Both the position numbers and the translations under genes were made by a program. Of a stretch of DNA of 13,789 nt, positions 2,203-13,789 are shown in pieces. Every line of letters starts with the position of its first letter. Positions within the stretch are counted from its first letter, which is position 1. The notes beneath the pieces were generated by a model. The model searched no databases. It was given only the letters and a program-made list of their open reading frames with translations, and was not told the DNA's origin. Location: IMG/VR virus record IMGVR_UViG_2568526722_000003, positions 1 to 13,789 of that record; one strand, 5' to 3'. Source of the stretch: a virus. Lineage: Duplodnaviria; Heunggongvirae; Uroviricota; Caudoviricetes.

Positions 2203-2379
2203 TGTTCATTCCACGGCCAAAAACAGAGAAAGGAAACGACAAAGGCCCAAAAGCTCGTTTTCAGCACCTGTCGTTTCCTTTCTTTTCAGGGGGTATTTTA
2301 AATAAAAACATTAAGTTACGACGAAGAAGAACGGAAACACCTTAAACCGGAAAATTTTCATAAATAGCAAAAACCCGCG

Positions 2380-2391
2380 AGGTCGCCGCCC
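2380..2391 (-). other. cos: cos site: 12-nt lambda cohesive end GGGCGGCGACCT (cosN core), with cosB/Nu1 leader on one side and lambda right-end sequence on the other
   Basis: Minus strand reads ...CCGGCGATCCGACAGGTTACG|GGGCGGCGACCT|CGCGGGTTTTTGCTATTTATGAAAATTTTCCGGTTTAAGG..., matching the joined lambda right and left ends as recalled; lies about 180 nt upstream of the Nu1 start. Confidence 0.85.
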
Positions 2392-2590
2392 CGTAACCTG
2401 TCGGATCGCCGGAAAGGACCCGCAAAATGATAATAATTATCATCTGCATGTCACAACGTGCATCTACGCCATCAAACCACGTCAAATAATCAATTATGAC
2501 GCAGGTATCATATTAATTGATCTGCATCAACTTAACGTAAAAACAACTTCAGACAATACAAATCAGCGACACTGAATACGGGACAACCTC

Positions 2591-2824
2591 ATGTCAACGA
2601 AGAACAGAACCCGCAGAACAACAACCCGCAACATCCGCTTTCCTAACCAAATGATTGAACAAATTAACATCGCTCTTGATCAAAAAGGGTCTGGGAACTT
2701 CTCAGCCTGGGTCATTGAAGCCTGCCGCCGAAGACTGTGCTCAGAAAAAAGAGTTTCGCCTGAAGCAAACAAAGAAAAGAGTGACATTACTGAATTGCTC
2801 AGAAAGCAGGTCAGACCAGATTGA
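2591..2824 (+). CDS. Small ribbon-helix-helix-like DNA-binding protein (77 aa), possibly YlcI/DUF3950-like
   Basis: ATG ORF; basic N-terminal tail (KNRTRRTTTR), then predicted beta-strand NIRFP and two helices (NQMIEQINIALDQ / FSAWVIEACRRRL), typical RHH topology; AT-rich; the family name is from memory and unverified. Confidence 0.55.
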   Translation: MSTKNRTRRTTTRNIRFPNQMIEQINIALDQKGSGNFSAWVIEACRRRLCSEKRVSPEANKEKSDITELLRKQVRPD

Positions 2825-2881
2825 AGCAATTTAGATAATCGTGCAGACTAGGTACCCTCATATCACATGGAAGGTACTACA

Positions 2882-3292
2882 ATGGCTCAGGTTGCCATTT
2901 TTAAACAAATATTCGATAAAGTGCGAAATAATTTAAACTATCACTGGTTTTATTCTGAACTAAAACGTCACAATGTCTCACATTACATTTACTATTTAGC
3001 CACAGAGAATATTCATCTTGTTCTTGAAAACGATAATACGGTTTTAATAAAAGGACAGGGTAAGGTTGTAAATGTAAGATTTTCAAAAAATAAATGCCTT
3101 ATAGAAGCCACATTAAAAGGATTCAAATCAGGAGAGTTATCATTTTACGAATACAGGAAAAATCTTGCTACAGCAGGGGTTTTCAGATGGATTACAAATA
3201 TCCACGAAAACAAAAGGTATTACTATACCTTTGATAATTCATTACTCTTTACTGAGAACATTCAGAACACTACACAAATATTTCCGCACTAA
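2882..3292 (+). CDS. AT-rich hypothetical protein (~137 aa), possibly DUF1398/YbcV-like moron
   Basis: Uninterrupted ORF; ATG at 2882 has a GGAAGG Shine-Dalgarno 7 nt upstream (the track start at 2867 has none); strongly AT-rich codon usage unlike the flanking phage genes; the family assignment is a recollection. Confidence 0.55.
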
Positions 3293-3337
3293 ATCATAAC
3301 GTCCGGTTTCTTCCGTGCCAGAACCGGACTCGCTGGC

Positions 3338-3502
3338 ATGATGAAATATGTGTACCCGGTAACCCCGGTGTGCATCGTTTTTGATTATTCCCGCACACTC
3401 GCGCAGAAGGAGTTCCCCGTCGGGCTACGGTCTCTGTTAATACGGGAATACGGCGACGATACAGCGCATGATGTGTCAGGCTTGAATACCTTTATCCTTT
3501 AA
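3338..3502 (+). CDS. Possible small ORF, 54 aa (MMKYVYPVTPVCIVFDYSRTLAQKEFPVGLRSLLIREYGDDTAHDVSGLNTFIL)
   Basis: ATG-initiated ORF just under the 60-aa track cutoff; sits between a stem-loop (3301-3329) and hairpin element A; no clear Shine-Dalgarno. Confidence 0.2.
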   Translation: MMKYVYPVTPVCIVFDYSRTLAQKEFPVGLRSLLIREYGDDTAHDVSGLNTFIL

Positions 3503-3970
3503 AAGGGATATCAGTTAAGTTATCCCGTGTAGGGTATAAGCCATTATCAAAGCCACTCTGTAGGGAATGGCTTTTGTGATGGCATCACTTACTCTTTACG
3601 CTGCTATCCCACTCATCCCGGAATTTTGATGGGTTATTGAAACCTTCTGCTGACATAACAACTCCTTCAATGTTTGGCTGAAATTAGGATGTCTTTCCAT
3701 CAGTCCGCCACCACAAAGAATCTTTTTTGCCATAAGGCAGGAGGTTCATCTTTCAGTGGCTGCCGGTGTTATTTCCCCACTTACTGGCTTGGGTTGTTTC
3801 GTGGTACTGCCGTTAACTGGTGGCGCACAGATTTAGTTAAATCCGTTCTCGCCTGAACTATCTTTTACATACCCGGATTGTGGGGATGTAAATCACGGTT
3901 TCATTATCAAGCCCACCAGTAGATGGGCTTTGTAATGAAGAGTTGTTATGAAAATTGCTCTAAACAAGCA

Positions 3971-4459
3971 TTAATAGCCATCAGAAGTAATCGCTACAGA
4001 TTTCAATCCCTCAATGTCATCCTTGGACAGGGCGAACCATTCACCGTGCTTTCTCTTTGCGGCAAATTTGCGATGAAGCATGTTTTCAGTTTCTCTTCCA
4101 CCAGGGATCAGGCACTCAAGCTTCAAGCAGTCTGGTCCAGAGTTGCCAAGCGATTTGATGCGTTGTGGAATGTTGGATGAATACCCAATTTTGGTTAGCC
4201 CAGTTTTCTTCGATGACAAAACGTATACCTGAGGAGGTTCTTTTCTCTGGTCTTCCATTACACGTCTCATTGTTGCCATAAGTCCGCCGTGCATCAGCAT
4301 TTCAACAAAGAACGCTGACCGAACACCTGACGACTTAAGCATGCCAGAAAATTCACTTGCCAATTCCATTAACTCTGCGATGTTTTCAGGAACTTTTTGG
4401 CAGTTATCTTCCTTGTATAAGGAAATCATTCTTTGAAGCTTTTCTTCTAATTGGTTCAT
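3971..4459 (-). CDS. T5orf172 / GIY-YIG-like domain protein (~162 aa) with an unrecognised N-terminal region
   Basis: C-terminal half (VYVLSSKKTGLTKIGYSSNIPQRIKSLGNSGPDCLKLECLIPGGRETENMLHRKFAAKRKHGEWFALSKDDIEGL) fits the T5orf172/MUG113 pattern (YVYxL...KIG.T.N..RR...L...E..LH..F...R..GEWF); the track start at 4495 is GTG, the first ATG is at 4457-4459 (MNQLEEK...). Confidence 0.6.
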   Translation of the reverse strand: MNQLEEKLQRMISLYKEDNCQKVPENIAELMELASEFSGMLKSSGVRSAFFVEMLMHGGLMATMRRVMEDQRKEPPQVYVLSSKKTGLTKIGYSSNIPQRIKSLGNSGPDCLKLECLIPGGRETENMLHRKFAAKRKHGEWFALSKDDIEGLKSVAITSDGY

Positions 4460-4608
4460 AGCGTCTTTACCTTTTAGAAAGTGAGCCTGTCTCACAGAAA
4501 AGCCGCCCCGAGATGGTCGCCACCATATACGGCAGTTCTCAGGCTCAACTTTCTGAAAGGCTCGGGTGATGTAATATGCGCGTGAGATGCGCTGTGAAAT
4601 TCAGATGT

Positions 4609-4632
4609 AAAAAAAGCCCCGCATCGCGAGGC
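4609..4632 (-). terminator. Rho-independent terminator downstream of Rz/Rz1
   Basis: Minus strand GCCTCGCGATGCGGGGC (7-bp GC-rich stem with one G-U pair, 3-nt loop) followed by TTTTTTT, about 30 nt after the Rz stop. Confidence 0.6.
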
Positions 4633-4664
4633 TCATTAAATGGACTTTGTGATTTGCAAAAAAA

Positions 4665-5123
4665 TTATTTCAGGCATTGCGTCCTGATGTATTCCTGCAG
4701 GTAGTTAACCTGCGCGGTTATCTTGTCGATTCCACTTCGGAGACGGTAATAATTGAGTTCAGCATCTGCTGTAAGTCCTGGGCTTTCTCCATCGCCCATG
4801 CCGCTGGCTCCGGTCGTTGACTTTGCACAGGTGGCGGCGACTTGCAGGCGCTTACGCCCAGCAGAAACATCAGCACGGAGACTTTCGATAGTCGCGTTAG
4901 CATCAGCAAGCTCCTTTGTGTATCTTGCGTCGAGTTCTGCTACATCACGTTGACGCTTCCGCATGTCAGCGATGGTGGCGTTCGCCTTCTCCAGTTCACT
5001 GGCCTTGTTATCGCGCTGCTCTTTGTAGGCGATTGCGTTATCACGGTAATGATTAACAGCCCATGACAGGCAGACGATGATGCAGATACCCGGCACTACC
5101 TGCTGAGGTGCCATAGGCGACAC
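4665..5123 (-). CDS. Rz: Spanin inner-membrane subunit Rz (i-spanin), N-terminus chimeric
   Basis: From [19 protein letters not shown]...KELADA... onward resembles lambda Rz as recalled; the first ~12 codons (from a GTG start) are encoded within the holin stub in another frame. Confidence 0.7.
4718..4903 (-). CDS. Rz1: Spanin outer-membrane lipoprotein Rz1 (o-spanin), embedded in Rz in the +1 frame
   Basis: [36 protein letters not shown]...: signal peptide with lipobox (LGVSAC) followed by a proline-rich region, wholly inside Rz as in lambda Rz/Rz1; ATG at 4901-4903. Confidence 0.7.
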
Positions 5124-5151
5124 CCGTTGTTAACTTATCCATGGATTTCAT
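5059..5151 (-). pseudogene. Holin remnant: first ~22 codons of a phage-21/DLP12 EssD-type holin ([22 protein letters not shown]), then out-of-frame read into Rz and stop
   Basis: ATG at 5149-5151 with GAGGTG Shine-Dalgarno; N-terminus matches S21/EssD as recalled; after ~22 codons the sequence continues as Rz in another frame; no endolysin ORF lies between holin and Rz. Confidence 0.65.
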
Positions 5152-5260
5152 AACCCCACCTCGCAGACAAAGCGGGTGTAAATTGAGGGAATACTACGAA
5201 ACGTAACAGACTCGGAGTCAGTGAATAACTCAGGTATTGGGTTATCAGCTAATATCGAGA

Positions 5261-5296
5261 CTCAAAAAATGGAAAAACCCACTCGACGGCGGGTTT
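5261..5296 (-). terminator. Candidate intrinsic terminator on the late-operon strand upstream of the holin stub
   Basis: Minus strand AAACCC-gccgtcgagt-GGGTTT followed by TTCCATTTTTTGAG. Confidence 0.3.
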
Positions 5297-5724
5297 AAGC
5301 TGTGTGACGAAGTAACCACTCTTAACAGCATAACCAATTTTTTACGTACGTAAACCACTAAATGATATTTGCGAGAATGCTACCGAGTATTGAAAACACC
5401 ACTACAAATACATAAGCAAATCTCAACAAATAACCAACAAATAATTCCCAGTGTTATTTTTAGCCGATTTAAATTGAACCTTCAAATCATAGAGCACTTA
5501 TAAATAACAACCGTTAATATAAATTGGCTAATAGATTTATTTTTATTCAGCCAAGAGCCATGAATAGGATTCGATAGAAAAAAGTTCAGATAAAAATAGA
5601 GATCTACTTCACAAATCAAACGAGAAACCAAAACTTACATCTTGAAATAATCATATTGATTAGATGAATATTTATCGCGCAGTGACATCATTTTTTAATA
5701 ATAGTTCAAAAAAAAGGGCTCACG

Positions 5725-6822
5725 ATGAAAAAATTAACAGTGGCAATTTCTGCTGTAGCTGCATCAGTACTGATGGCGATGTCTGCTCAGGCAGCTGAAA
5801 TTTATAATAAAGACAGTAACAAGCTGGATCTGTACGGGAAAGTTAATGCTAAGCACTACTTCTCCTCTAATGATGCAGATGATGGTGATACTACTTATGC
5901 CCGTCTTGGCTTCAAAGGTGAAACCCAAATCAACGATCAACTGACTGGTTTCGGTCAGTGGGAATATGAATTCAAAGGCAACCGCGCTGAATCTCAAGGT
6001 TCCTCCAAAGATAAAACCCGTCTTGCCTTCGCTGGCCTGAAATTCGGTGACTACGGCTCCATCGATTACGGCCGTAACTACGGTGTAGCATACGACATCG
6101 GTGCGTGGACTGACGTTCTGCCAGAATTCGGTGGCGATACCTGGACCCAAACAGATGTGTTCATGACTGGTCGCACCACTGGTGTTGCAACCTATCGTAA
6201 CAACGACTTCTTTGGTCTGGTTGATGGTCTGAACTTTGCTGCTCAGTACCAAGGCAAAAACGATCGTAGCGATTTCGATAACTACACCGAAGGTAACGGT
6301 GATGGCTTCGGTTTCTCTGCTACCTATGAATACGAAGGATTCGGTATCGGTGCAACTTATGCGAAATCTGATCGTACCGACACTCAAGTTAATGCAGGGA
6401 AAGTTCTTCCTGAAGTATTTGCTTCCGGTAAAAATGCAGAAGTTTGGGCCGCAGGTCTGAAATATGACGCTAACAACATTTACCTGGCCACTACCTATTC
6501 TGAAACCCAGAATATGACTGTATTTGCTGATCACTTCGTTGCTAATAAAGCTCAAAACTTCGAAGCTGTTGCACAATATCAGTTCGATTTCGGTCTGCGT
6601 CCGTCCGTTGCTTACCTGCAATCTAAAGGTAAGGATCTTGGAGTATGGGGCGATCAGGACTTAGTCAAATATGTTGATGTAGGTGCAACCTATTACTTCA
6701 ACAAAAATATGTCTACTTTCGTTGATTACAAAATCAACCTGCTTGACAAAAATGACTTCACTAAAGCACTCGGTGTAAGCACTGATGACATCGTTGCTGT
6801 AGGTCTGGTTTACCAGTTCTAA
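5725..6822 (+). CDS. nmpC: OmpC-family outer-membrane porin (NmpC / phage Lc type), 365 aa, intact
   Basis: Signal peptide [23 protein letters not shown]|AEIYNKD, porin motifs and C-terminal ...VAVGLVYQF; full-length and uninterrupted; opposite orientation to Q and the lysis genes, as for DLP12 nmpC and PA-2 lc. Confidence 0.9.
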
Positions 6823-6830
6823 TCTGATTA

Positions 6831-6872
6831 CGAAAAAGATATGTTGCGGGAGGCTTTGCCTCCCCAACATAT
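6831..6872 (-). terminator. Candidate late terminator (tR'-like) downstream of Q on the minus strand
   Basis: Minus strand ATATGTTGGGGAGGC-aaag-GCCTCCCGCAACATAT (about 15-bp stem) followed by CTTTTTCG; about 140 nt downstream of the Q stop. Confidence 0.45.
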
Positions 6873-6960
6873 AAGTGGCTCCCTCAAGCCACTTCCTTTA
6901 GGAGCACAACCTTGCTTCTAACTATATAAACCTTCTGTTATATATTACCCTTTATTTTTG

Positions 6961-6990
6961 GGGGCGTTGCAACGCCCCATTTTTAATAAT
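6961..6990 (+). terminator. Rho-independent terminator for the porin gene; perfect 18-bp palindrome
   Basis: GGGGCGTTGCAACGCCCC followed by ATTTTTAATAATTTTT on the plus strand. Confidence 0.5.
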
Positions 6991-7011
6991 TTTTAGTAAA
7001 CAACTGGCATA

Positions 7012-7395
7012 TTAATTAGAGTTATTAACAACGATATCCATCTCTAACCGGATATCTAATGCCATTAACATCCCTTCAATTATGCCCTCAGCCTTCTGTA
7101 ACCTTTTCCCGATATAACCATCAGAGCAGCAATGCTTACCTGCCAGTGACATGAATGTCATACCGACTACATAATAATCTACTAATAAATCGTGCAAATC
7201 GCTGTTGTTCTTTTTCAGACGGGCCATGCACCCGCAAATAATCATCGCGTCATCGTCACAACATTGCGGGCGAGATTTTACTTTTGAAGTAATTAATCCC
7301 TTAAAACCGGCGGCAATGGACGACCAGGTCACATCTTCATGATTATTAGCCGCCCACGCTCCCCAACGCTCAAGAACCATCTGAATATCACGCAT
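7012..7395 (-). CDS. Q: Late-gene antiterminator Q, phage 21/82 (DLP12 QuuD) type, 127 aa
   Basis: [34 protein letters not shown]...[16 protein letters not shown]... matches DLP12-type Q as recalled; ATG at 7393-7395 (the track start at 7410 is TTG). Confidence 0.85.
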
Positions 7396-7480
7396 CAACT
7401 TACTCCACAAAAATCAGGCCAGAACGCCAATTACAAGCAAAAATCAACAAAACAGTATTAGTTGATTGTTATCTCTGACT

Positions 7481-7621
7481 TCATACTCCTGCTCCTGTCA
7501 GGGTTTTGGCGTAATTCTTCAGTATTCGGTAATCGGTCAAAACAGAACCGGGGGAACGATATAAGCGCAGACGCCCCCAGCGGTGGCGAAGAAGTTCTGC
7601 CATATTAAACTCAAACATCAT
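7481..7621 (-). CDS. ylcG: Small protein YlcG-like (46 aa)
   Basis: Hand-translated [49 protein letters not shown]; its ATG overlaps the rusA stop (ATGA); matches DLP12 YlcG as recalled; below the track size cutoff. Confidence 0.6.
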
Positions 7622-7980
7622 TCATTCCCCATTTCGGTGATGGTCAGTTCCAGCCTCCCACCTTTGGTAACAGGCATCTTCACAACGCGGTAATCAACGA
7701 CCTGAGCATCATCCAGCCAGAAACCTGCTTTAGTGAGTGCGTCAAAAGCGGCTTTTTGCAGATTATCCAGGTCACGGCGACGGCGATCCGGCATGTGGCA
7801 CTCAATGCGGATTTTCACAGGCATAGCCAGGCCGATATCCAGCATTGCGTTTTTAATGATTCGGGCGACGTTATCGCGGTATGCCTGCCCCTCTGCGCTG
7901 ACGTGCGTGCGCCCTCGATTATGGCGGTAGTAGCGGTTATTGCTCGGCGGCCAGGGTAGTGTGATGTGGTAAGTATTCAC
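7618..7980 (-). CDS. rusA: Holliday-junction resolvase RusA, 120 aa
   Basis: (M)[37 protein letters not shown]...[28 protein letters not shown]... matches RusA as recalled; GTG start overlapping the upstream stop (GTGA). Confidence 0.93.
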
Positions 7981-9231: not shown

Positions 9232-9737
9232 GCAGCTCGATCTCCCCATCTCGCTTTCCACTCCAGAGCCAGTCTCGCTTCGTCTGACCACTTAACGCCA
9301 CGCTCTGTACCGAATGCCTGTATAAGCTCTAATAGCTCCGCAAATTCGTTTACACGCATCCTGCTGGTTGACTGGCCTATTACCACAAAGCCATTCCCGG
9401 CAAGGTTAGGAACAACATCCTGCTGCTTTAATGCTGCGGTAAACACACACTTCCAGCTTTCTGCATCCAGCCAGCGACCATGCCATTCAACCTGACGAGA
9501 GACGTCACCAAGGCAAGCCCAAAGCTTTCGATTCTGGTCTAAGCTGCGGTTGCGTTCCTGAATGGTTACTACGATTGGTTTGGTTGGGTCTGGAAGAATT
9601 TGCTGTAACCGCCCTATTCTCTCGCTGAATCGCAAACCGAAATCACGAGTAGAAAGCGCACTGAATCCGATAGACCTTACGGTGCTGGCTGAATACCACG
9701 AACAGATTGAAAGCAACCTGCAACGTATTGAGCGCAA
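9228..9737 (-). CDS. ninB: Recombination protein NinB (Orf), C-terminal ~125 aa lambda-like, N-terminal ~44 codons atypical with no canonical start
   Basis: From QQILPDPTKPIVVTIQERNRSLDQNRKLWACLGDVSRQVEWHGRWLDAESWKCVFTAALKQQ... to the stop matches lambda NinB as recalled; the preceding 44 codons do not, and the track start is a TTG. Confidence 0.65.
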   Translation of the reverse strand: MRSIRCRLLSICSWYSASTVRSIGFSALSTRDFGLRFSERIGRLQQILPDPTKPIVVTIQERNRSLDQNRKLWACLGDVSRQVEWHGRWLDAESWKCVFTAALKQQDVVPNLAGNGFVVIGQSTSRMRVNEFAELLELIQAFGTERGVKWSDEARLALEWKARWGDRAA

Positions 9738-9839
9738 GAATCATCGAGTTTGGTATAGCAAGCCAAGTGAGTTCGGTATAACTTGTCAAGGAAGACAAAA
9801 GGTTAAAGGGAAATCCATTCCATTGGCATGAGGTACGTA

Positions 9840-10169
9840 ATGAAGAAAATTGATTACAAGTCCATACCAAAACCAATAGACTCAGCATCAGAGCGAAAAA
9901 AACACAAAAAAGAGGCTGAAAAATTAGCAAATTATATCAGTTTTATTAGAAACAATGCTCACGGCGATGGCGACAGGAAGTTGCTTTCAGATGCCCGGAC
10001 CCAAGCGTTCAGTATACTTCGTAAGCAGATGCAATATCGTCTTCATCCAGGCTACATAATTGAAATTCGCCCGACTGAAAGACAATTGTTCTTATTAAAC
10101 TCTGTCTTTGACTTTGTAAACGTAGTTGGAGATCTTATCGACAGGTCTGTAGATAAGGCTCCTGGGTGA
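9840..10169 (+). CDS. AT-rich hypothetical protein, 3' end cut by IS1 (stop supplied by the IS1 left end)
   Basis: ORF MKKIDYKSIPKPIDSASERKKHKKEAEKLANYISFIRNNAHGDGDRKLLSDARTQAFSILRKQMQYRLHPGYIIEIRPTERQLFLLNSVFDFVNVVGDLIDRSVDKAPG*; ATG at 9840 with GAGG 8 nt upstream; low GC; the last codons and stop (GG TGA) are IS1 sequence; no family recognised. Confidence 0.45.
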   Translation: MKKIDYKSIPKPIDSASERKKHKKEAEKLANYISFIRNNAHGDGDRKLLSDARTQAFSILRKQMQYRLHPGYIIEIRPTERQLFLLNSVFDFVNVVGDLIDRSVDKAPG

Positions 10170-10219
10170 TGCTGCCAACTTACTGATTTAGTGTATGATG
10201 GTGTTTTTGAGGTGCTCCA

Positions 10220-10495
10220 GTGGCTTCTGTTTCTATCAGCTGTCCCTCCTGTTCAGCTACTGACGGGGTGGTGCGTAACGGCAAAAGCACCGCCGGACAT
10301 CAGCGCTATCTCTGCTCTCACTGCCGTAAAACATGGCAACTGCAGTTCACTTACACCGCTTCTCAACCCGGTACGCACCAGAAAATCATTGATATGGCCA
10401 TGAATGGCGTTGGATGCCGGGCAACTGCCCGCATTATGGGCGTTGGCCTCAACACGATTTTACGTCACTTAAAAAACTCAGGCCGCAGTCGGTAA
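10220..10495 (+). CDS. insA: IS1 InsA (transposition inhibitor / transposase N-terminal part), 91 aa
   Basis: [43 protein letters not shown]... matches IS1 InsA. Confidence 0.95.
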
Positions 10496-10917
10496 CCTCG
10501 CGCATACAGCCGGGCAGTGACGTCATCGTCTGCGCGGAAATGGACGAACAGTGGGGCTATGTCGGGGCTAAATCGCGCCAGCGCTGGCTGTTTTACGCGT
10601 ATGACAGTCTCCGGAAGACGGTTGTTGCGCACGTATTCGGTGAGCGCACTATGGCGACGCTGGGGCGTCTTATGAGCCTGCTGTCACCCTTTGACGTGGT
10701 GATATGGATGACGGATGGCTGGCCGCTGTATGAATCCCGCCTGAAGGGAAAGCTGCACGTAATCAGCAAGCGATATACGCAGCGAATTGAGCGGCATAAC
10801 CTGAATCTGAGGCAGCACCTGGCACGGCTGGGACGGAAGTCGCTGTCGTTCTCAAAATCGGTGGAGCTGCATGACAAAGTCATCGGGCATTATCTGAACA
10901 TAAAACACTATCAATAA
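10414..10917 (+). CDS. insB: IS1 InsB' frame (transposase catalytic part, expressed as InsAB' by -1 frameshift)
   Basis: ...[72 protein letters not shown]... matches IS1 InsB. Confidence 0.93.
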
Positions 10918-11042
10918 GTTGGAGTCATTACCAGAAAGCAGGTCTTTCTCTCGTGTAGAGATAAGCGAGTCAGAGTTATGGGGTATATCAAATAATCCTG
11001 TAAACCACGCTCACCAACGAAATCCAAACAAAAAGTGGTCAT

Positions 11043-11067
11043 AACCCGCTCAGGCGGGTTTCATTTT
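11043..11067 (+). terminator. Candidate intrinsic terminator upstream of ea10 (possibly tL2-like)
   Basis: AACCCGC-tcag-GCGGGTT followed by TCATTTTCA. Confidence 0.4.
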
Positions 11068-11231
11068 CACGCAAACAAAAGAATAAACACTGCACTGTGT
11101 ATTCATTCCAACGAGTGAATACACGGAGCAATGTCGCTCGTAACTAAACAGGAGCCGACTTGTTCTGATTATTGGAAATCTTCTTTGACCTCTAATGTGA
11201 GGGCGATTTTTTTCTGTGAGGATATGAACAG

Positions 11232-11600
11232 ATGTCAAACATCAAAAAATACATCATTGATTACGACTGGAAAGCATCAATAGAAATTGAAATCGACCAT
11301 GACTTAATGACAGAGGAAAAACTTCACAAGATTAATAATTTCTGGTCAGACTCTGAATACCGACTCAATAAACACGGCTCTGTATTAAATGCTGTATTAA
11401 TCATGCTGGCGCAACATGCTCTGCTTATAGCAATTTCAAGCGACTTAAATGCATATGGTGTTGTGTGTGAGTTCGACTGGAATGATGGAAATGGTCAGGA
11501 AGGATGGCCTACAATGGATGGTAGCGAAGGAATAAGAATTACCGATATCGATACATCAGGAATATTTGATTCAGATGATATGACTATCAAAGCCGCCTGA
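11232..11600 (+). CDS. ea10: Ea10 (lambda early protein, ssDNA-binding), 122 aa
   Basis: MSNIKKYIIDYDWKASIEIEIDHDLMTEEKLHKINNFWSDSEYRLNKHG...; size and position immediately upstream of cIII match lambda ea10 as recalled. Confidence 0.75.
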   Translation: MSNIKKYIIDYDWKASIEIEIDHDLMTEEKLHKINNFWSDSEYRLNKHGSVLNAVLIMLAQHALLIAISSDLNAYGVVCEFDWNDGNGQEGWPTMDGSEGIRITDIDTSGIFDSDDMTIKAA

Positions 11601-11672
11601 GCGCGGCGTTACCGCATACCAATAACGCTTCACTCGAGGCGTTTTTCGTTATGTATAAATAAGGAGCACACC

Positions 11673-11837
11673 ATGCAATATGCCATTGCAGGGTGGCCTG
11701 TTGCTGGCTGCCCTTCCGAATCTTTACTTGAACGAATCACCCGTAAATTACGTGACGGATGGAAACGCCTTATCGACATACTTAATCAGCCAGGAGTCCC
11801 AAAAAATGGATCAAACACTTATGGCTATCCAGACTAA
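11673..11837 (+). CDS. cIII: CIII (FtsH/HflB protease inhibitor), 54 aa
   Basis: Hand-translated [54 protein letters not shown] matches lambda CIII; AAGGAG Shine-Dalgarno upstream; the track merged it with kil. Confidence 0.9.
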   Translation: MQYAIAGWPVAGCPSESLLERITRKLRDGWKRLIDILNQPGVPKNGSNTYGYPD

Positions 11838-11949
11838 ATTCACTATCGCCACTTTTATTGGCGATGAAAAGATGTTTCGTGAAGCCGTCGACGCTTATAA
11901 AAAATGTATATTAATGCTGAAACTGAGATCAAGCAAAAGCATTCACTAA
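11806..11949 (+). CDS. kil: Kil (host FtsZ/cell-division inhibitor), 47 aa
   Basis: [47 protein letters not shown] matches lambda Kil as recalled; overlaps the cIII 3' end as in lambda. Confidence 0.85.
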
Positions 11950-12024
11950 CCCCCTTTCCTGTTTTCCTAATCAGCCTGGCATTTCGCGGGCGCTATTTTC
12001 ACAGCCATTTTCAGGAGTTCAGCC

Positions 12025-12321
12025 ATGAACGCTTATTACATTCAGGATCGTCTTGAGGCTCAGAGCTGGGCGCGTCACTACCAGCAGATCGCCCGTGAAG
12101 AGAAAGAGGCAGAACTGGCAGACGACATGGAAAAAGGCCTGCCCCAGCACCTGTTTGAATCGCTATGCATCGATCATTTGCAACGCCACGGGGCCAGCAA
12201 AAAAGCCATTACCCGTGCGTTTGATGACGATGTTGAGTTTCAGGAGCGCATGGCAGAACACATCCGGTACATGGTTGAAACCATTGCTCACCACCAAGTT
12301 GATATTGATTCAGAGGTATAA
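12025..12321 (+). CDS. gam: Gam (RecBCD inhibitor), GamS form, 98 aa
   Basis: [98 protein letters not shown] matches lambda Gam. Confidence 0.93.
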
Positions 12322-12326
12322 AACGG

Positions 12327-13112
12327 ATGAGTACAGCACTCGCAACGCTGGCAGGGAAGCTGGCTGAACGTGTCGGCATGGATTCTGTCGACCCACAGGA
12401 ACTGATCACCACTCTTCGCCAGACGGCATTTAAAGGTGATGCCAGCGATGCGCAGTTCATCGCATTGTTGATCGTCGCCAACCAGTACGGCCTTAATCCG
12501 TGGACGAAAGAAATTTACGCCTTCCCTGATAAGCAGAACGGCATCGTTCCGGTGGTGGGCGTTGATGGCTGGTCCCGCATCATCAATGAAAACCAGCAGT
12601 TTGATGGCATGGACTTTGAGCAGGACAATGAATCCTGTACATGCCGGATTTACCGCAAGGACCGTAATCATCCGATCTGCGTTACCGAATGGATGGATGA
12701 ATGCCGCCGCGAACCATTCAAAACTCGCGAAGGCAGAGAAATCACGGGGCCGTGGCAGTCGCATCCCAAACGGATGTTACGGCATAAAGCCATGATTCAG
12801 TGTGCCCGTCTGGCCTTCGGATTTGCTGGTATCTATGACAAGGATGAAGCCGAGCGCATTGTCGAAAATACTGCATACACTGCAGAACGTCAGCCAGAAC
12901 GCGACATCACTCCGGTTAACGATGAAACCATGCAGGAGATTAACACTCTGCTGATCGCCCTGGATAAAACATGGGATGACGACTTATTGCCGCTCTGTTC
13001 CCAGATATTTCGCCGCGACATTCGCGCATCGTCAGAACTGACACAGGCCGAAGCAGTGAAAGCTCTTGGATTCCTGAAACAGAAAGCCACTGAGCAGAAG
13101 GTGGCAGCATGA
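12327..13112 (+). CDS. bet: Bet (Red-beta single-strand annealing recombinase), 261 aa
   Basis: Full-length match to lambda Bet ([44 protein letters not shown]...). Confidence 0.96.
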
Positions 13113-13789
13113 TACCGGACATTATCCTGCAGCGTACCGGGATCGACGTGAGAGCTGTCGAACAGGGGGATGATGCATGGCACAAATTACGGCTCGGCGT
13201 CATCACCGCTTCAGAAGTTCACAACGTGATAGCAAAGCCCCGCTCAGGAAAGAAGTGGCCTGACATGAAAATGTCCTACTTCCACACCCTGCTGGCTGAG
13301 GTTTGCACCGGTGTGGCTCCGGAAGTTAATGCTAAGGCGCTGGCCTGGGGAAAACAGTACGAGAACGACGCCAGAACCCTGTTTGAATTCACTTCCGGCG
13401 TGAATGTTACTGAATCCCCGATCATCTATCGCGACGAAAATATGCGCACTGCCTGCTCTCCCGATGGTTTATGCAGTGACGGCAACGGCCTTGAACTGAA
13501 ATGCCCGTTTACCTCCCGGGATTTCATGAAATTCCGGCTCGGTGGTTTCGAGGCAATAAAATCGGCTTACATGGCCCAGGTGCAGTACAGCATGTGGGTG
13601 ACGCGAAAAGATGCCTGGTACTTTGCCAACTATGACCCGCGCATGAAGCGTGAAGGCCTGCATTATGTCGTGATTGAGCGGAATGAAAAGTACATGGCGA
13701 GTTTTGACGAGATGGTGCCGGAGTTCATCGAAAAAATGGACGAGGCACTGGCTGAAATTGGTTTTGTATTTGGGGAGCAATGGCGATGA
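13109..13789 (+). CDS. exo: Exo (Red-alpha 5'-3' exonuclease), 226 aa
   Basis: Full-length match to lambda Exo ([40 protein letters not shown]...GFVFGEQWR*); ATGA overlap with bet; the stop codon is the last 3 nt of the window. Confidence 0.96.

What the first reader, a model, noticed from the sequence alone, without database searches (positions are those of the whole stretch)
11232..13789. Complete Red recombination/host-takeover block preserved in an otherwise dead prophage
ea10, cIII, kil, gam, bet and exo are all full length with intact overlaps and start signals, while the structural, lysis, immunity and replication genes show at least six separate deletion junctions. Kil is toxic and is normally repressed by cI, which is missing here, so expression of this block must be limited by loss of pL/N or by the upstream terminator. 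The pattern points to selective retention of Red, the porin and rusA.
Basis: inference. Interest (0 to 1): 0.45.

Follow-up and report, generated by a model that had tools for sequence, protein, structure and literature searches.

The report
Orphaned lambda Red operon remnant
This is the left-operon recombination block (ea10, cIII, kil, gam, bet, exo) of a decayed lambda/434-like prophage at the E. coli argU (DLP12) site, intact on paper but cut off from its promoter; sister strains show it is being lost and mutated like neutral DNA, so it is an ordinary prophage remnant.

Summary
All six ORFs are full length, 98% identical in DNA to phages 434 and lambda, with the same overlaps and ribosome-binding sites. 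The cIII thermoregulator RNA is also intact.

A 4.26-kb deletion removed cI, pL, nutL and the first 33 codons of N. An IS1 sits 300 bp upstream of ea10. Two hairpin terminators remain, and no promoter-like site lies between IS1 and ea10.

"Selective retention" is not supported:
- The remnant is young: 3 differences in 2,857 bp from a near-complete prophage at the same site. Intact ORFs are therefore expected.
- Among 18 complete genomes of the same remnant lineage, 4 have deleted ea10 through bet and 1 carries bet Q32*.
- Point changes run about 5 non-synonymous to 3 synonymous, close to neutral.
- Most members have lost the porin and rusA.

Two caveats:
- Kil carries W34C at a tryptophan invariant in intact Kil homologues. 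The change is found only in this lineage and in no phage record, so Kil may be disarmed.
- IS1-adjacent deletions on the Red side all stop before cIII. This is weak evidence, confounded by IS1's AT-rich target preference and by argU 3.7 kb away.

The parts
9604..9831 (+). N' : C-terminal 75 codons of a 434-type antiterminator N. It has no start codon and lacks the arginine-rich RNA-binding motif.
   Evidence: Annotated as N, missing N-terminus, in L001. Aligns to 434 N from residue 33 on.
9606..9612 (.). Deletion junction ninB'/'N. It removes 4.26 kb: the ninB 5' end, ren, P, O, cII, cro, cI, hex, oL/pL, nutL and the N 5' end. The junction shows short, imperfect microhomology.
   Evidence: Window 9612 maps to L004 28859 and window 9606 to L004 33121. 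Sequences shown. 434 annotation of the lost interval.
9840..10164 (+). 5' part of the 434-type gene between N and ea10 (annotated 'Nun C-terminal peptide-containing protein'), cut by IS1.
   Evidence: 100% identical to L004 33121-33679. No Pfam hit.
10165..10932 (+). IS1 (768 bp), with insA/insB reading towards ea10. Originally a simple insertion with 9-bp target duplication AGGCTCCTG. In the window the right-hand copy and 442 bp of flank have been lost to an adjacent deletion.
   Evidence: L024 and L032 keep both flanks. L023 has the window's exact state.
10933..11044 (+). 3' remnant of the Nun-like gene (last 37 codons and stop).
11043..11060 (+). Intrinsic-terminator-like hairpin (7 bp, 5 G-C) followed by UUUCAUUUUC.
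   Evidence: Folding energy -11.8 kcal/mol, z = -3.06.
11232..11600 (+). ea10 (DUF2528), 122 aa, full length. V25L, Q33K and P94T relative to lambda; identical to the L004 allele.
11624..11643 (+). Intrinsic-terminator-like hairpin (8 bp) followed by UUUUUCGUU, between ea10 and cIII. Every lineage member examined keeps it.
   Evidence: Folding energy -13.8 kcal/mol, z = -3.45. Right-flank deletion endpoints.
11660..11718 (+). Lambda cIII thermoregulator RNA element (Rfam RF01804), full length.
   Evidence: 88.5 bits against a gathering score of 50.
11673..11837 (+). cIII, 54 aa, identical to lambda CIII.
11806..11949 (+). kil, 47 aa, full length, with W34C (lineage-specific) and I37M (shared with L004).
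11905..11907 (+). Kil codon 34, TGT (Cys) instead of TGG (Trp). The residue is invariant in intact Kil homologues.
12025..12321 (+). gam, 98-aa form, full length. The upstream 138-aa frame is broken by an extra T at 12009-12012, as in L004.
12327..13112 (+). bet, 261 aa, identical to 434 Bet.
13109..13789 (+). exo, 226 aa, full length, keeping D119/E129/K131. Identical to the L004 allele. The next deletion junction lies 26 nt past the stop, outside the window.

Best explanation
The block is the distal half of the pL operon of a 434-immunity lambdoid prophage integrated at argU, the DLP12 site.

**Silencing (inferred).** The block has been disconnected from everything that transcribes it in a phage. 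One deletion removed cI, pL, nutL and the RNA-binding end of N. IS1 then landed between the N remnant and ea10. Two intrinsic terminators that N-modified polymerase would normally read through remain in front of ea10 and cIII. The genes are therefore predicted to be silent or nearly so, which is why kil and gam are tolerated without a repressor.

**Why the ORFs are still intact (shown from the data).** Two ordinary reasons account for it.
- The remnant is young, at 0.1% divergence from a near-complete relative.
- The block lies in a 3.7-kb pocket between IS1 and argU, so large IS1-mediated deletions survive only on the other side.

**Course of decay (shown).** In the population the block behaves like neutral DNA: it is deleted in one sub-clade, carries a nonsense mutation in one genome, is nibbled from the ea10 end in several members, and is overwritten by recombination with other lambdoid prophages in two.

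**Kil.** Kil W34C, at an invariant helix-2 tryptophan, probably weakens the toxin. Whether it was selected or is simply the first neutral hit cannot be decided here.
For: **Shown: origin and position.**
- Identity and synteny with 434 and lambda.
- Location next to argU-fimZ.
- A near-complete relative at the same site differs at only 3 positions over the block.

**Shown: disconnection from transcription signals.**
- Loss of cI, pL, nutL and the N 5' end.
- IS1 with a reconstructed 9-bp target duplication.
- Terminator hairpins.
- No promoter-like site between IS1 and ea10.

**Shown: population behaviour.**
- The exo/int junction marks 18 complete genomes of the lineage.
- Four of them (W21, GPEC206-621, BKQ37E, LR881940) join dam' directly to the last 510 nt of exo.
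- S1-INA-02-B has bet Q32*.
- Changes seen within the lineage are exo P71S, exo S161R, ea10 M117I and Kil W34C, against synonymous bet G72G, exo H59H and gam Q91Q.
- A count of 5 non-synonymous to 3 synonymous is compatible with the neutral 79% non-synonymous expectation (p = 0.38). Window versus lambda is 13:30 (p = 1e-11).
- NT1F25 (49 differences) and CH4784 (17 differences) carry foreign Red alleles.
- At least 11 distinct left-side IS1 deletions of 0.3 to more than 30 kb remove the porin, rusA and even host genes up to cusS/cusF.
- Other remnants at the same site keep different subsets: K-12 keeps exo' only, PKF8 bet plus exo, CFSAN061772 ea10 to bet'.

**From established knowledge.**
- Lambda early-left genes depend on pL and N antitermination.
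- IS1 insertions are polar.
- The 3' end of DLP12 int overlaps argU (Lindsey et al. 1989, listed in PMC6379469).
- argU is the only tRNA reading AGA.
Against: - Six distinct IS1-adjacent deletions on the Red side (150, 442, 814, 895, 1003 and 1058 bp) all stop inside or before ea10; none enters cIII-exo.
- In the census that does not depend on kil, 4 distinct endpoints all fall in the first 1,058 of 3,216 detectable bp. That gives p about 0.012 under uniform endpoints, which could mean the core is protected.
- The deletion at the other end stops 26 nt after the exo stop codon.
- Silence is inferred from sequence only. Weak read-through from IS1 or an unrecognised promoter is not excluded.
- The counts of substitutions are small.
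Confidence: 0.7

Rival explanations
1. Domestication: the host keeps cIII-exo because low-level Red, Gam or CIII activity is useful, for example for recombination, repair or defence against incoming phages. Selection would then remove deletions or mutations that destroy it.
For: - Thirteen of 18 complete genomes of the lineage still have every Red ORF open.
- All six right-side IS1 deletions stop before cIII. The uniform-endpoint p is about 0.012 for the 4 found in the unbiased census.
- In several strains everything else of the prophage is gone and only IS1 plus this block remains.
- Translation signals and the cIII RNA element are intact.
Against: - No promoter, two terminators, and no N or nutL.
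- One clade of four genomes from four countries lacks the block.
- bet Q32* occurs in one genome.
- The non-synonymous to synonymous count of 5:3 is near neutral.
- The endpoint pattern has neutral explanations. The ea10 side is 36% GC against 50.5% for cIII-exo, and five of six endpoints sit in DNA of 32-35% local GC, which matches IS1's known liking for AT-rich targets. The kil-based samples also cannot see deeper deletions.
- K-12 and other strains lost Red at this locus.
Confidence: 0.12
2. Toxicity-shaped retention: the block persists not because it is useful but because many ways of losing it are harmful. Deletions that remove the terminators would place cIII-kil-gam directly behind IS1 read-through and would express toxic Kil and Gam. 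Such deletions would be counter-selected. Kil W34C would be a selected disarming mutation.
For: - Every right-side deletion keeps the ea10-cIII terminator at 11624-11643; the deepest ends 124 nt before cIII.
- W34C is confined to this lineage: 13 of 435 genomes carrying this kil segment and 0 of 74 phage records. All 10 further contexts are the same remnant.
- W34 is invariant in intact Kil homologues of both the lambda type and the HK629 type.
- W34 lies in helix 2 of the helix-turn-helix core needed for activity (PMC11762379).
Against: - The idea does not explain the absence of endpoints inside bet or exo, where kil and gam would be removed altogether.
- One substitution on the stem of a lineage can be a neutral hitch-hiker.
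- No experimental data exist on W34C.
- IS1 outward transcription is weak (established knowledge, not tested here).
Confidence: 0.1
3. Reservoir for phages: the remnant matters mainly as homologous DNA that incoming lambdoid phages or other resident prophages recombine with. It would persist through repeated gene conversion rather than through host benefit.
For: - NT1F25 and CH4784 have the lineage's junctions but foreign ea10, kil, gam, bet and exo alleles.
- 300081 shares an Exo allele with NT1F25.
[quoted passage not shown] 2014, as cited in PMC6379469).
Against: - Conversion explains mosaicism, not retention.
- Most members are identical to the window over the block.
Confidence: 0.05

Closest known systems
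Phage lambda / phage 434 pL operon, distal part (ea10-cIII-kil-gam-bet-exo; the Red system)
   Same: Same genes, order, overlaps, ribosome-binding sites and cIII RNA element. DNA identity is 98%.
   Different: pL/oL, nutL, functional N and the cI repressor are all missing. IS1 is inserted upstream. Kil carries W34C. Downstream, orf60a through the int 5' end is deleted.
DLP12 cryptic prophage of E. coli K-12 (argU site)
   Same: Same integration site between argU/fimZ and the ompT/appY side. Same kind of late-region remnant: quuD, porin (nmpC-like), rusA, ylcG, nohD'.
   Different: K-12 keeps an intact intD but only a 279-nt exo fragment fused to a P fragment. The window keeps the whole ea10-exo block but only the last 405 nt of int.
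Rac prophage recET (silent recombination genes of a cryptic prophage, switched on by sbcA mutations)
   Same: An exonuclease/annealase pair sits intact in a defective lambdoid prophage and is predicted not to be expressed for lack of an active promoter (analogy from established knowledge).
   Different: Different protein families for the exonuclease. Rac keeps its repressor and promoter region. No activating mutation or phenotype is known for the present block.
Engineered recombineering prophages (lambda cI857 delta(cro-bioA) strains such as DY380, and the defective prophage used to study kil in PMC3961180)
   Same: A chromosome-borne lambda remnant reduced to the pL operon, carrying gam-bet-exo and kil.
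   Different: The engineered versions deliberately keep cI857, pL, N and nutL so that the block can be induced. The natural remnant lacks all four.
IS1-mediated adjacent deletions
   Same: IS1 stays in place while one flank and one copy of the 9-bp duplication are lost. Nested endpoints occur on both sides in sister strains. The general mechanism is described in PMC11708052.
   Different: Nothing unusual. The only notable point is the asymmetry: 0.15-1.06 kb on the argU side against 0.3 to more than 30 kb on the other.

Membership tests
Lambda Red recombination system (Exo, Bet, Gam) | Exo: YqaJ/lambda-exonuclease fold protein of 226 aa with catalytic D119, E129, K131 | tested here: met
   PF09588 at 104.9 bits. 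Five substitutions relative to lambda, none catalytic; D/E/K present.
Lambda Red recombination system (Exo, Bet, Gam) | Bet: RecT-family single-strand annealing protein, translationally coupled to exo | tested here: met
   PF03837 at 115.6 bits. Identical to 434 Bet. ATGA overlap at 13109-13112.
Lambda Red recombination system (Exo, Bet, Gam) | Gam: 98-aa RecBCD inhibitor | tested here: met
   PF06064 at 216.8 bits over 1-98. One to two substitutions.
Lambda Red recombination system (Exo, Bet, Gam) | Transcription from pL with N/nutL antitermination, under cI control | tested here: not met
   The interval holding cI, oL/pL, nutL and N codons 1-33 is deleted. IS1 and two terminators lie upstream.
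Lambda Red recombination system (Exo, Bet, Gam) | Recombination activity in vivo | not testable with these tools
   Needs a recombineering assay in a carrier strain.
Lambda Kil (FtsZ/ZipA-dependent division inhibitor) | 47-aa peptide matching PF06301, overlapping cIII | tested here: met
   72.4 bits over residues 2-32. 32-nt overlap with cIII.
Lambda Kil (FtsZ/ZipA-dependent division inhibitor) | Conserved helix-2 core including W34 | tested here: not met
   The window has C34. W is present in 67 of the 76 cluster representatives that cover the column. Most other exceptions are visibly frameshifted or C-terminally divergent sequences, plus the window's own cluster (P0001) and one 32-aa variant with Cys (P0068). 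Helix 2 spans residues 21-38 (PMC11762379).
Lambda Kil (FtsZ/ZipA-dependent division inhibitor) | Toxicity on expression | not testable with these tools
   Needs inducible expression of the W34C allele.
Lambda CIII with its RNA thermoregulator | PF02061 protein plus the RF01804 RNA element spanning the start codon | tested here: met
   Protein at 105.4 bits, identical to lambda. RNA at 88.5 bits, full length.
DLP12-type cryptic prophage at argU | Lies between argU/fimZ and the ompT-appY side, with the int 3' end abutting argU | tested here: met
   Identical sequence in NZ_CP062853 and others lies 15 nt from tRNA-Arg, with fimZ beyond it.
Domesticated prophage genes (kept by purifying selection in the host) | Excess of synonymous over non-synonymous change, and no loss-of-function alleles, within the host lineage | tested here: not met
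   About 5 non-synonymous (one of them a stop) against 3 synonymous. Block deleted in 4 of 18 genomes. Numbers are small, so this is weak evidence of absence rather than proof.
IS1 adjacent-deletion products | IS1 retained at the junction, target duplication lost on the deleted side, ancestral state with both 9-bp copies found in relatives | tested here: met
   AGGCTCCTG on both sides in L024 and L032. In the window the right copy and 442 bp are missing.

The most novel reading that the evidence does not exclude
The cIII-exo core is actively protected in this E. coli lineage. This would be either because a low level of Red, Gam or CIII is useful, or because a disarmed Kil (W34C) turned a lethal orphan operon into a harmless, activatable recombination cassette. 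That would explain why a dozen independent IS1 deletions stripped away everything else, even host genes, while six on the Red side all halted before cIII.
Probability: 0.12. Interest if true: 0.45.

Novelty: already known. Interest (0 to 1): 0.2.

Why it matters
As it stands this is a well-understood object: lambda Red genes in a cryptic prophage, already annotated as such in RefSeq. It offers two modest things.

- **A natural deletion series.** An IS1-anchored nested series across dozens of sequenced strains shows how a prophage is whittled down. It also shows how an essential neighbour (argU) and IS target preference can make a module look 'preserved'.
- **A testable Kil allele.** W34C lies at an invariant residue and could inform structure-function work on this FtsZ inhibitor.

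If the block proved to be expressed, wild E. coli of this lineage would be naturally recombineering-proficient. That would be of practical interest, but the sequence evidence argues against it.

Tried and rejected
- **Promoter search in 10880-11235, + strand.** The tool scan found nothing there. My looser scan found nothing above 8/12 matches and no extended -10. An IS1-end hybrid promoter (TTGGAG at 10919-24) has no -10 at the right spacing (read).
- **Rfam on the whole window.** Only the cIII thermoregulator was found, with no other RNA.
- **The 434-annotated terminator position (window about 11185-11214).** It does not fold better than shuffles (z = -0.43), so I do not count it.
- **Literature on W34.** Neither Kil paper mentions this residue, so the functional effect of W34C remains inferred.
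- **The ninB/N junction as a lineage marker.** Only 3 complete genomes share it, because most relatives have since deleted it. The exo/int junction and the head junction proved better markers.
- **Endpoint clustering in the kil-selected samples.** Not significant once the ascertainment limit is applied (p = 0.27-0.42).
- **The 138-aa Gam frame break as a sign of decay.** Rejected, because the near-complete relative has the same extra T.
- **An engineered recombineering strain as the source of the window.** Considered and rejected: the immunity type is 434, there is no cI857, and the context is the natural argU site.
Full report
**What is there**

The window is a decayed lambdoid prophage. Positions 11232-13789 carry, on the + strand:
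- ea10 (11232-11600)
- cIII (11673-11837)
- kil (11806-11949)
- gam (12025-12321, the 98-aa form)
- bet (12327-13112)
- exo (13109-13789)

The window ends on the exo stop codon. Over 11000-13789 the DNA is 98.3% identical to phage 434, and a few points lower to lambda.

Every gene has the length it has in lambda and 434. cIII equals lambda cIII and Bet equals 434 Bet. Gam, Ea10 and Exo differ by 1-5 residues, and Exo keeps D119/E129/K131. All six pass their Pfam cut-offs.

The cIII/kil overlap, the bet/exo ATGA overlap and a Shine-Dalgarno motif before each start are present. The cIII thermoregulator RNA (RF01804) is full length at 11660-11718.

**Where it sits and what it came from**

The same sequence occurs in complete E. 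coli chromosomes next to tRNA-Arg (argU) and fimZ. This is the DLP12 site of K-12.

Strain EM18-18-42 carries a near-complete prophage with 434-type immunity at the same site (L004). Against it the window shows the following:
- a junction near 145, where tail genes are lost;
- 2042/2046, where 6.7 kb of head and terminase genes are lost;
- 5083-5088, where 0.68 kb of lysis genes is lost;
- 9606-9612, where 4.26 kb is lost;
- IS1 at 10165-10932, replacing 433 bp of a 434-type 'Nun-like' gene;
- just outside the window, a junction 26 nt after the exo stop that joins it to the last 405 nt of int.

The count of 'at least six junctions' is thus about right.

**Why the block should be silent**

The 4.26-kb deletion fuses ninB' on the opposite strand to codon 33 of N. 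It removes ren, P, O, cII, cro, cI, hex, oL/pL and nutL. The surviving N fragment has no start codon and lacks the arginine-rich motif.

IS1 was then inserted between the N remnant and ea10. Relatives L024 and L032 still show the simple insertion with the 9-bp duplication AGGCTCCTG.

Downstream of IS1 there is a good hairpin plus U tract at 11043-11060 (-11.8 kcal/mol, z = -3.1). Another lies at 11624-11643 (-13.8 kcal/mol, z = -3.5). No sigma-70-like site better than 8 of 12 lies between IS1 and ea10.

In lambda these genes are transcribed only from pL by N-modified polymerase, and IS1 insertions are polar. Both statements rest on established knowledge. The prediction that the block is silent is an inference; it has not been measured.

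**Is the integrity more than chance?**

No. Over 10933-13789 the window differs from the near-complete relative at three positions only: 11907, 12297 and 12828. At that divergence, disabling point mutations in 2.5 kb are not expected.

From the retained segments, I estimate that a specified 2.56-kb block had roughly a 9% prior chance of escaping the deletions. The chance that some recognisable module survives is far higher.

**What sister strains show**

I used junctions as lineage markers in 5,426 complete genomes. The exo/int junction is shared by 18 genomes of this lineage.
- Thirteen of these carry the window's kil allele.
- NT1F25 carries a foreign kil allele.
- Four (W21, GPEC206-621, BKQ37E, LR881940; from China, USA, Malawi and Norway) share the head and lysis junctions. 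In them, dam' joins directly to the last 510 nt of exo, so N', IS1, ea10, cIII, kil, gam and bet are gone.
- S1-INA-02-B has bet Q32*.

Other changes within the lineage are:
- non-synonymous: exo P71S, exo S161R, ea10 M117I and the basal Kil W34C;
- synonymous: bet G72G, exo H59H and gam Q91Q.

Five non-synonymous to three synonymous fits the neutral expectation of 79% non-synonymous (p = 0.38). The phage-era comparison, window versus lambda, is 13:30 (p = 1e-11). The two ratios differ at p about 0.1. The numbers are small but point to relaxed constraint.

NT1F25 (49 differences) and CH4784 (17 differences) carry foreign Red alleles inside the same junctions, which indicates recombination with other lambdoid prophages.

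At the same locus, other strains keep other subsets: K-12 keeps exo' only, PKF8 keeps bet and exo, and CFSAN061772 keeps ea10 to a truncated bet.

**The porin and rusA**

IS1 has produced at least 11 distinct deletions on its other side, from 332 bp to more than 30 kb. These run through the nin region, rusA, quuD, the porin, the lysis and head remnants, and in several strains on into host DNA up to cusS or cusF. Most Red-carrying members therefore lack the porin and rusA. The idea that these are co-retained is not supported.

**What could still speak for protection**

On the Red side, IS1-adjacent deletions of 150 bp (Res13), 442 bp (the window and L023), 814, 895, 1003 and 1058 bp are seen. 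All end before the ea10 stop codon and none reaches cIII, which starts at 1183 bp.

In the census that does not depend on kil, four distinct endpoints all lie within the first 1,058 of 3,216 detectable bp. That gives p about 0.012 under a uniform model.

Three neutral factors weaken this:
- The ea10 side is 36% GC against 50.5% for cIII-exo, and five of six endpoints sit in DNA of 32-35% local GC. This suits IS1's preference for AT-rich targets (established knowledge).
- The kil-selected samples cannot detect deeper deletions.
- argU lies 3.7 kb from IS1. It is the sole AGA-reading tRNA, and its 3' end is supplied by the prophage (Lindsey et al. 1989, cited in PMC6379469). Deletions of the size seen on the other side would therefore be lethal here.

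I treat the pattern as a lead, not as evidence of selection.

**Kil**

The one non-synonymous change that separates the window from the near-complete relative is Kil W34C (TGG>TGT at 11905-11907).
- The exact allele is in 13 of 435 complete genomes that carry this kil segment and in none of 74 phage records.
- Ten further genomic contexts of the exact protein are all this same remnant.
- W34 is present in 67 of the 76 cluster representatives that cover the column, in both the 47-aa lambda type and the 37-aa HK629 type. Most other exceptions are visibly frameshifted or C-terminally divergent sequences, plus the window's own cluster (P0001) and one 32-aa variant with Cys (P0068).
- The residue lies in helix 2 (residues 21-38) of the helix-turn-helix core that is required for activity (PMC11762379).
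- No paper I could read tests this residue.

It is plausible that this Kil is weakened. Whether that was selected when repression was lost, or is simply the first neutral hit, cannot be told from sequence.

**Verdict**

This is an ordinary, recently decayed prophage remnant. The Red block is intact because it is young and lies in a sheltered position. It is most likely silent because its promoter, antiterminator and nut site are gone.

The silencing explanation is supported by sequence. The selective-retention explanation is not supported by the population data, although a weak endpoint pattern and the Kil substitution keep a small door open.

Noticed in passing
window 10165-10932 and flanks; loci L001, L005, L006, L011-L020, L023-L032: One ancestral IS1 insertion (9-bp duplication AGGCTCCTG) has generated a nested series of adjacent deletions on both sides in sister strains. 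There are at least 11 endpoints on the nin/late-gene side (0.3 to more than 30 kb, reaching cusS/cusF) and 6 on the ea10 side (150-1058 bp). ES2 and L028 share the 895-bp right endpoint but differ on the left.
   Followed up: yes
window 12009-12012: An extra T relative to lambda and 434 breaks the 138-aa 'long Gam' reading frame annotated in lambda, while the 98-aa Gam stays intact. The near-complete prophage L004 has the same T, so functional-looking relatives lack the long form.
   Followed up: yes
window 9840-10164 and 10933-11044; L003 5176-6045; L004 33355-34224: 434-type phages carry an 870-nt gene between N and ea10, annotated 'Nun C-terminal peptide-containing protein'. It has no Pfam match for its N-terminal part. 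It is the gene IS1 hit, and it ends ...NPNKKWS just before a strong terminator.
   Followed up: partly
L020 (NT1F25) 4526-7082; L017 (CH4784) 6149-7913: These loci have the same IS1 and exo/int junctions as the window but foreign alleles of ea10, kil (54 aa), gam, bet and exo. This indicates gene conversion of the remnant by another lambdoid prophage.
   Followed up: partly
L007-L010 (W21, GPEC206-621, BKQ37E, LR881940), e.g. L007 20815-21671: A sub-clade joins a truncated dam methylase gene directly to the last 510 nt of exo. It also has a different left boundary in three members, where an Rhs/VgrG region abuts the tail gene remnant.
   Followed up: partly
L004 16525-18125, 26261-26643, 38446-39609: The 'near-complete' relative is itself defective. 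Portal and quuD are frameshifted and intD has an internal stop, so decay at this site starts with point lesions before the large deletions.
   Followed up: no
window 11053: G in the window, Res13 and L004, but A in many relatives. The position lies in the loop of the 11043-11060 terminator hairpin and is a convenient sub-lineage marker. 11133 G>A marks L024 and L032.
   Followed up: partly
window 5725-6822, 7012-7410, 7618-7980, 3971-4495: An intact 365-aa porin (nmpC/ompC-like), quuD, rusA and a GIY-YIG nuclease gene survive in the window. In sister strains they are variously interrupted (IS3 in quuD of 300081; ISEc52 in the nuclease region of BKQ37E) or deleted.
   Followed up: partly
L021 (PKF8) 5596-7483; L022 (CFSAN061772) 5322-7412; L033 (K-12) 2345-3906: Independent remnants at the argU site keep different pieces of the Red block next to an int fragment or gene: bet plus exo; ea10 to a truncated bet; or only 279 nt of exo fused to a P fragment.
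   Followed up: partly
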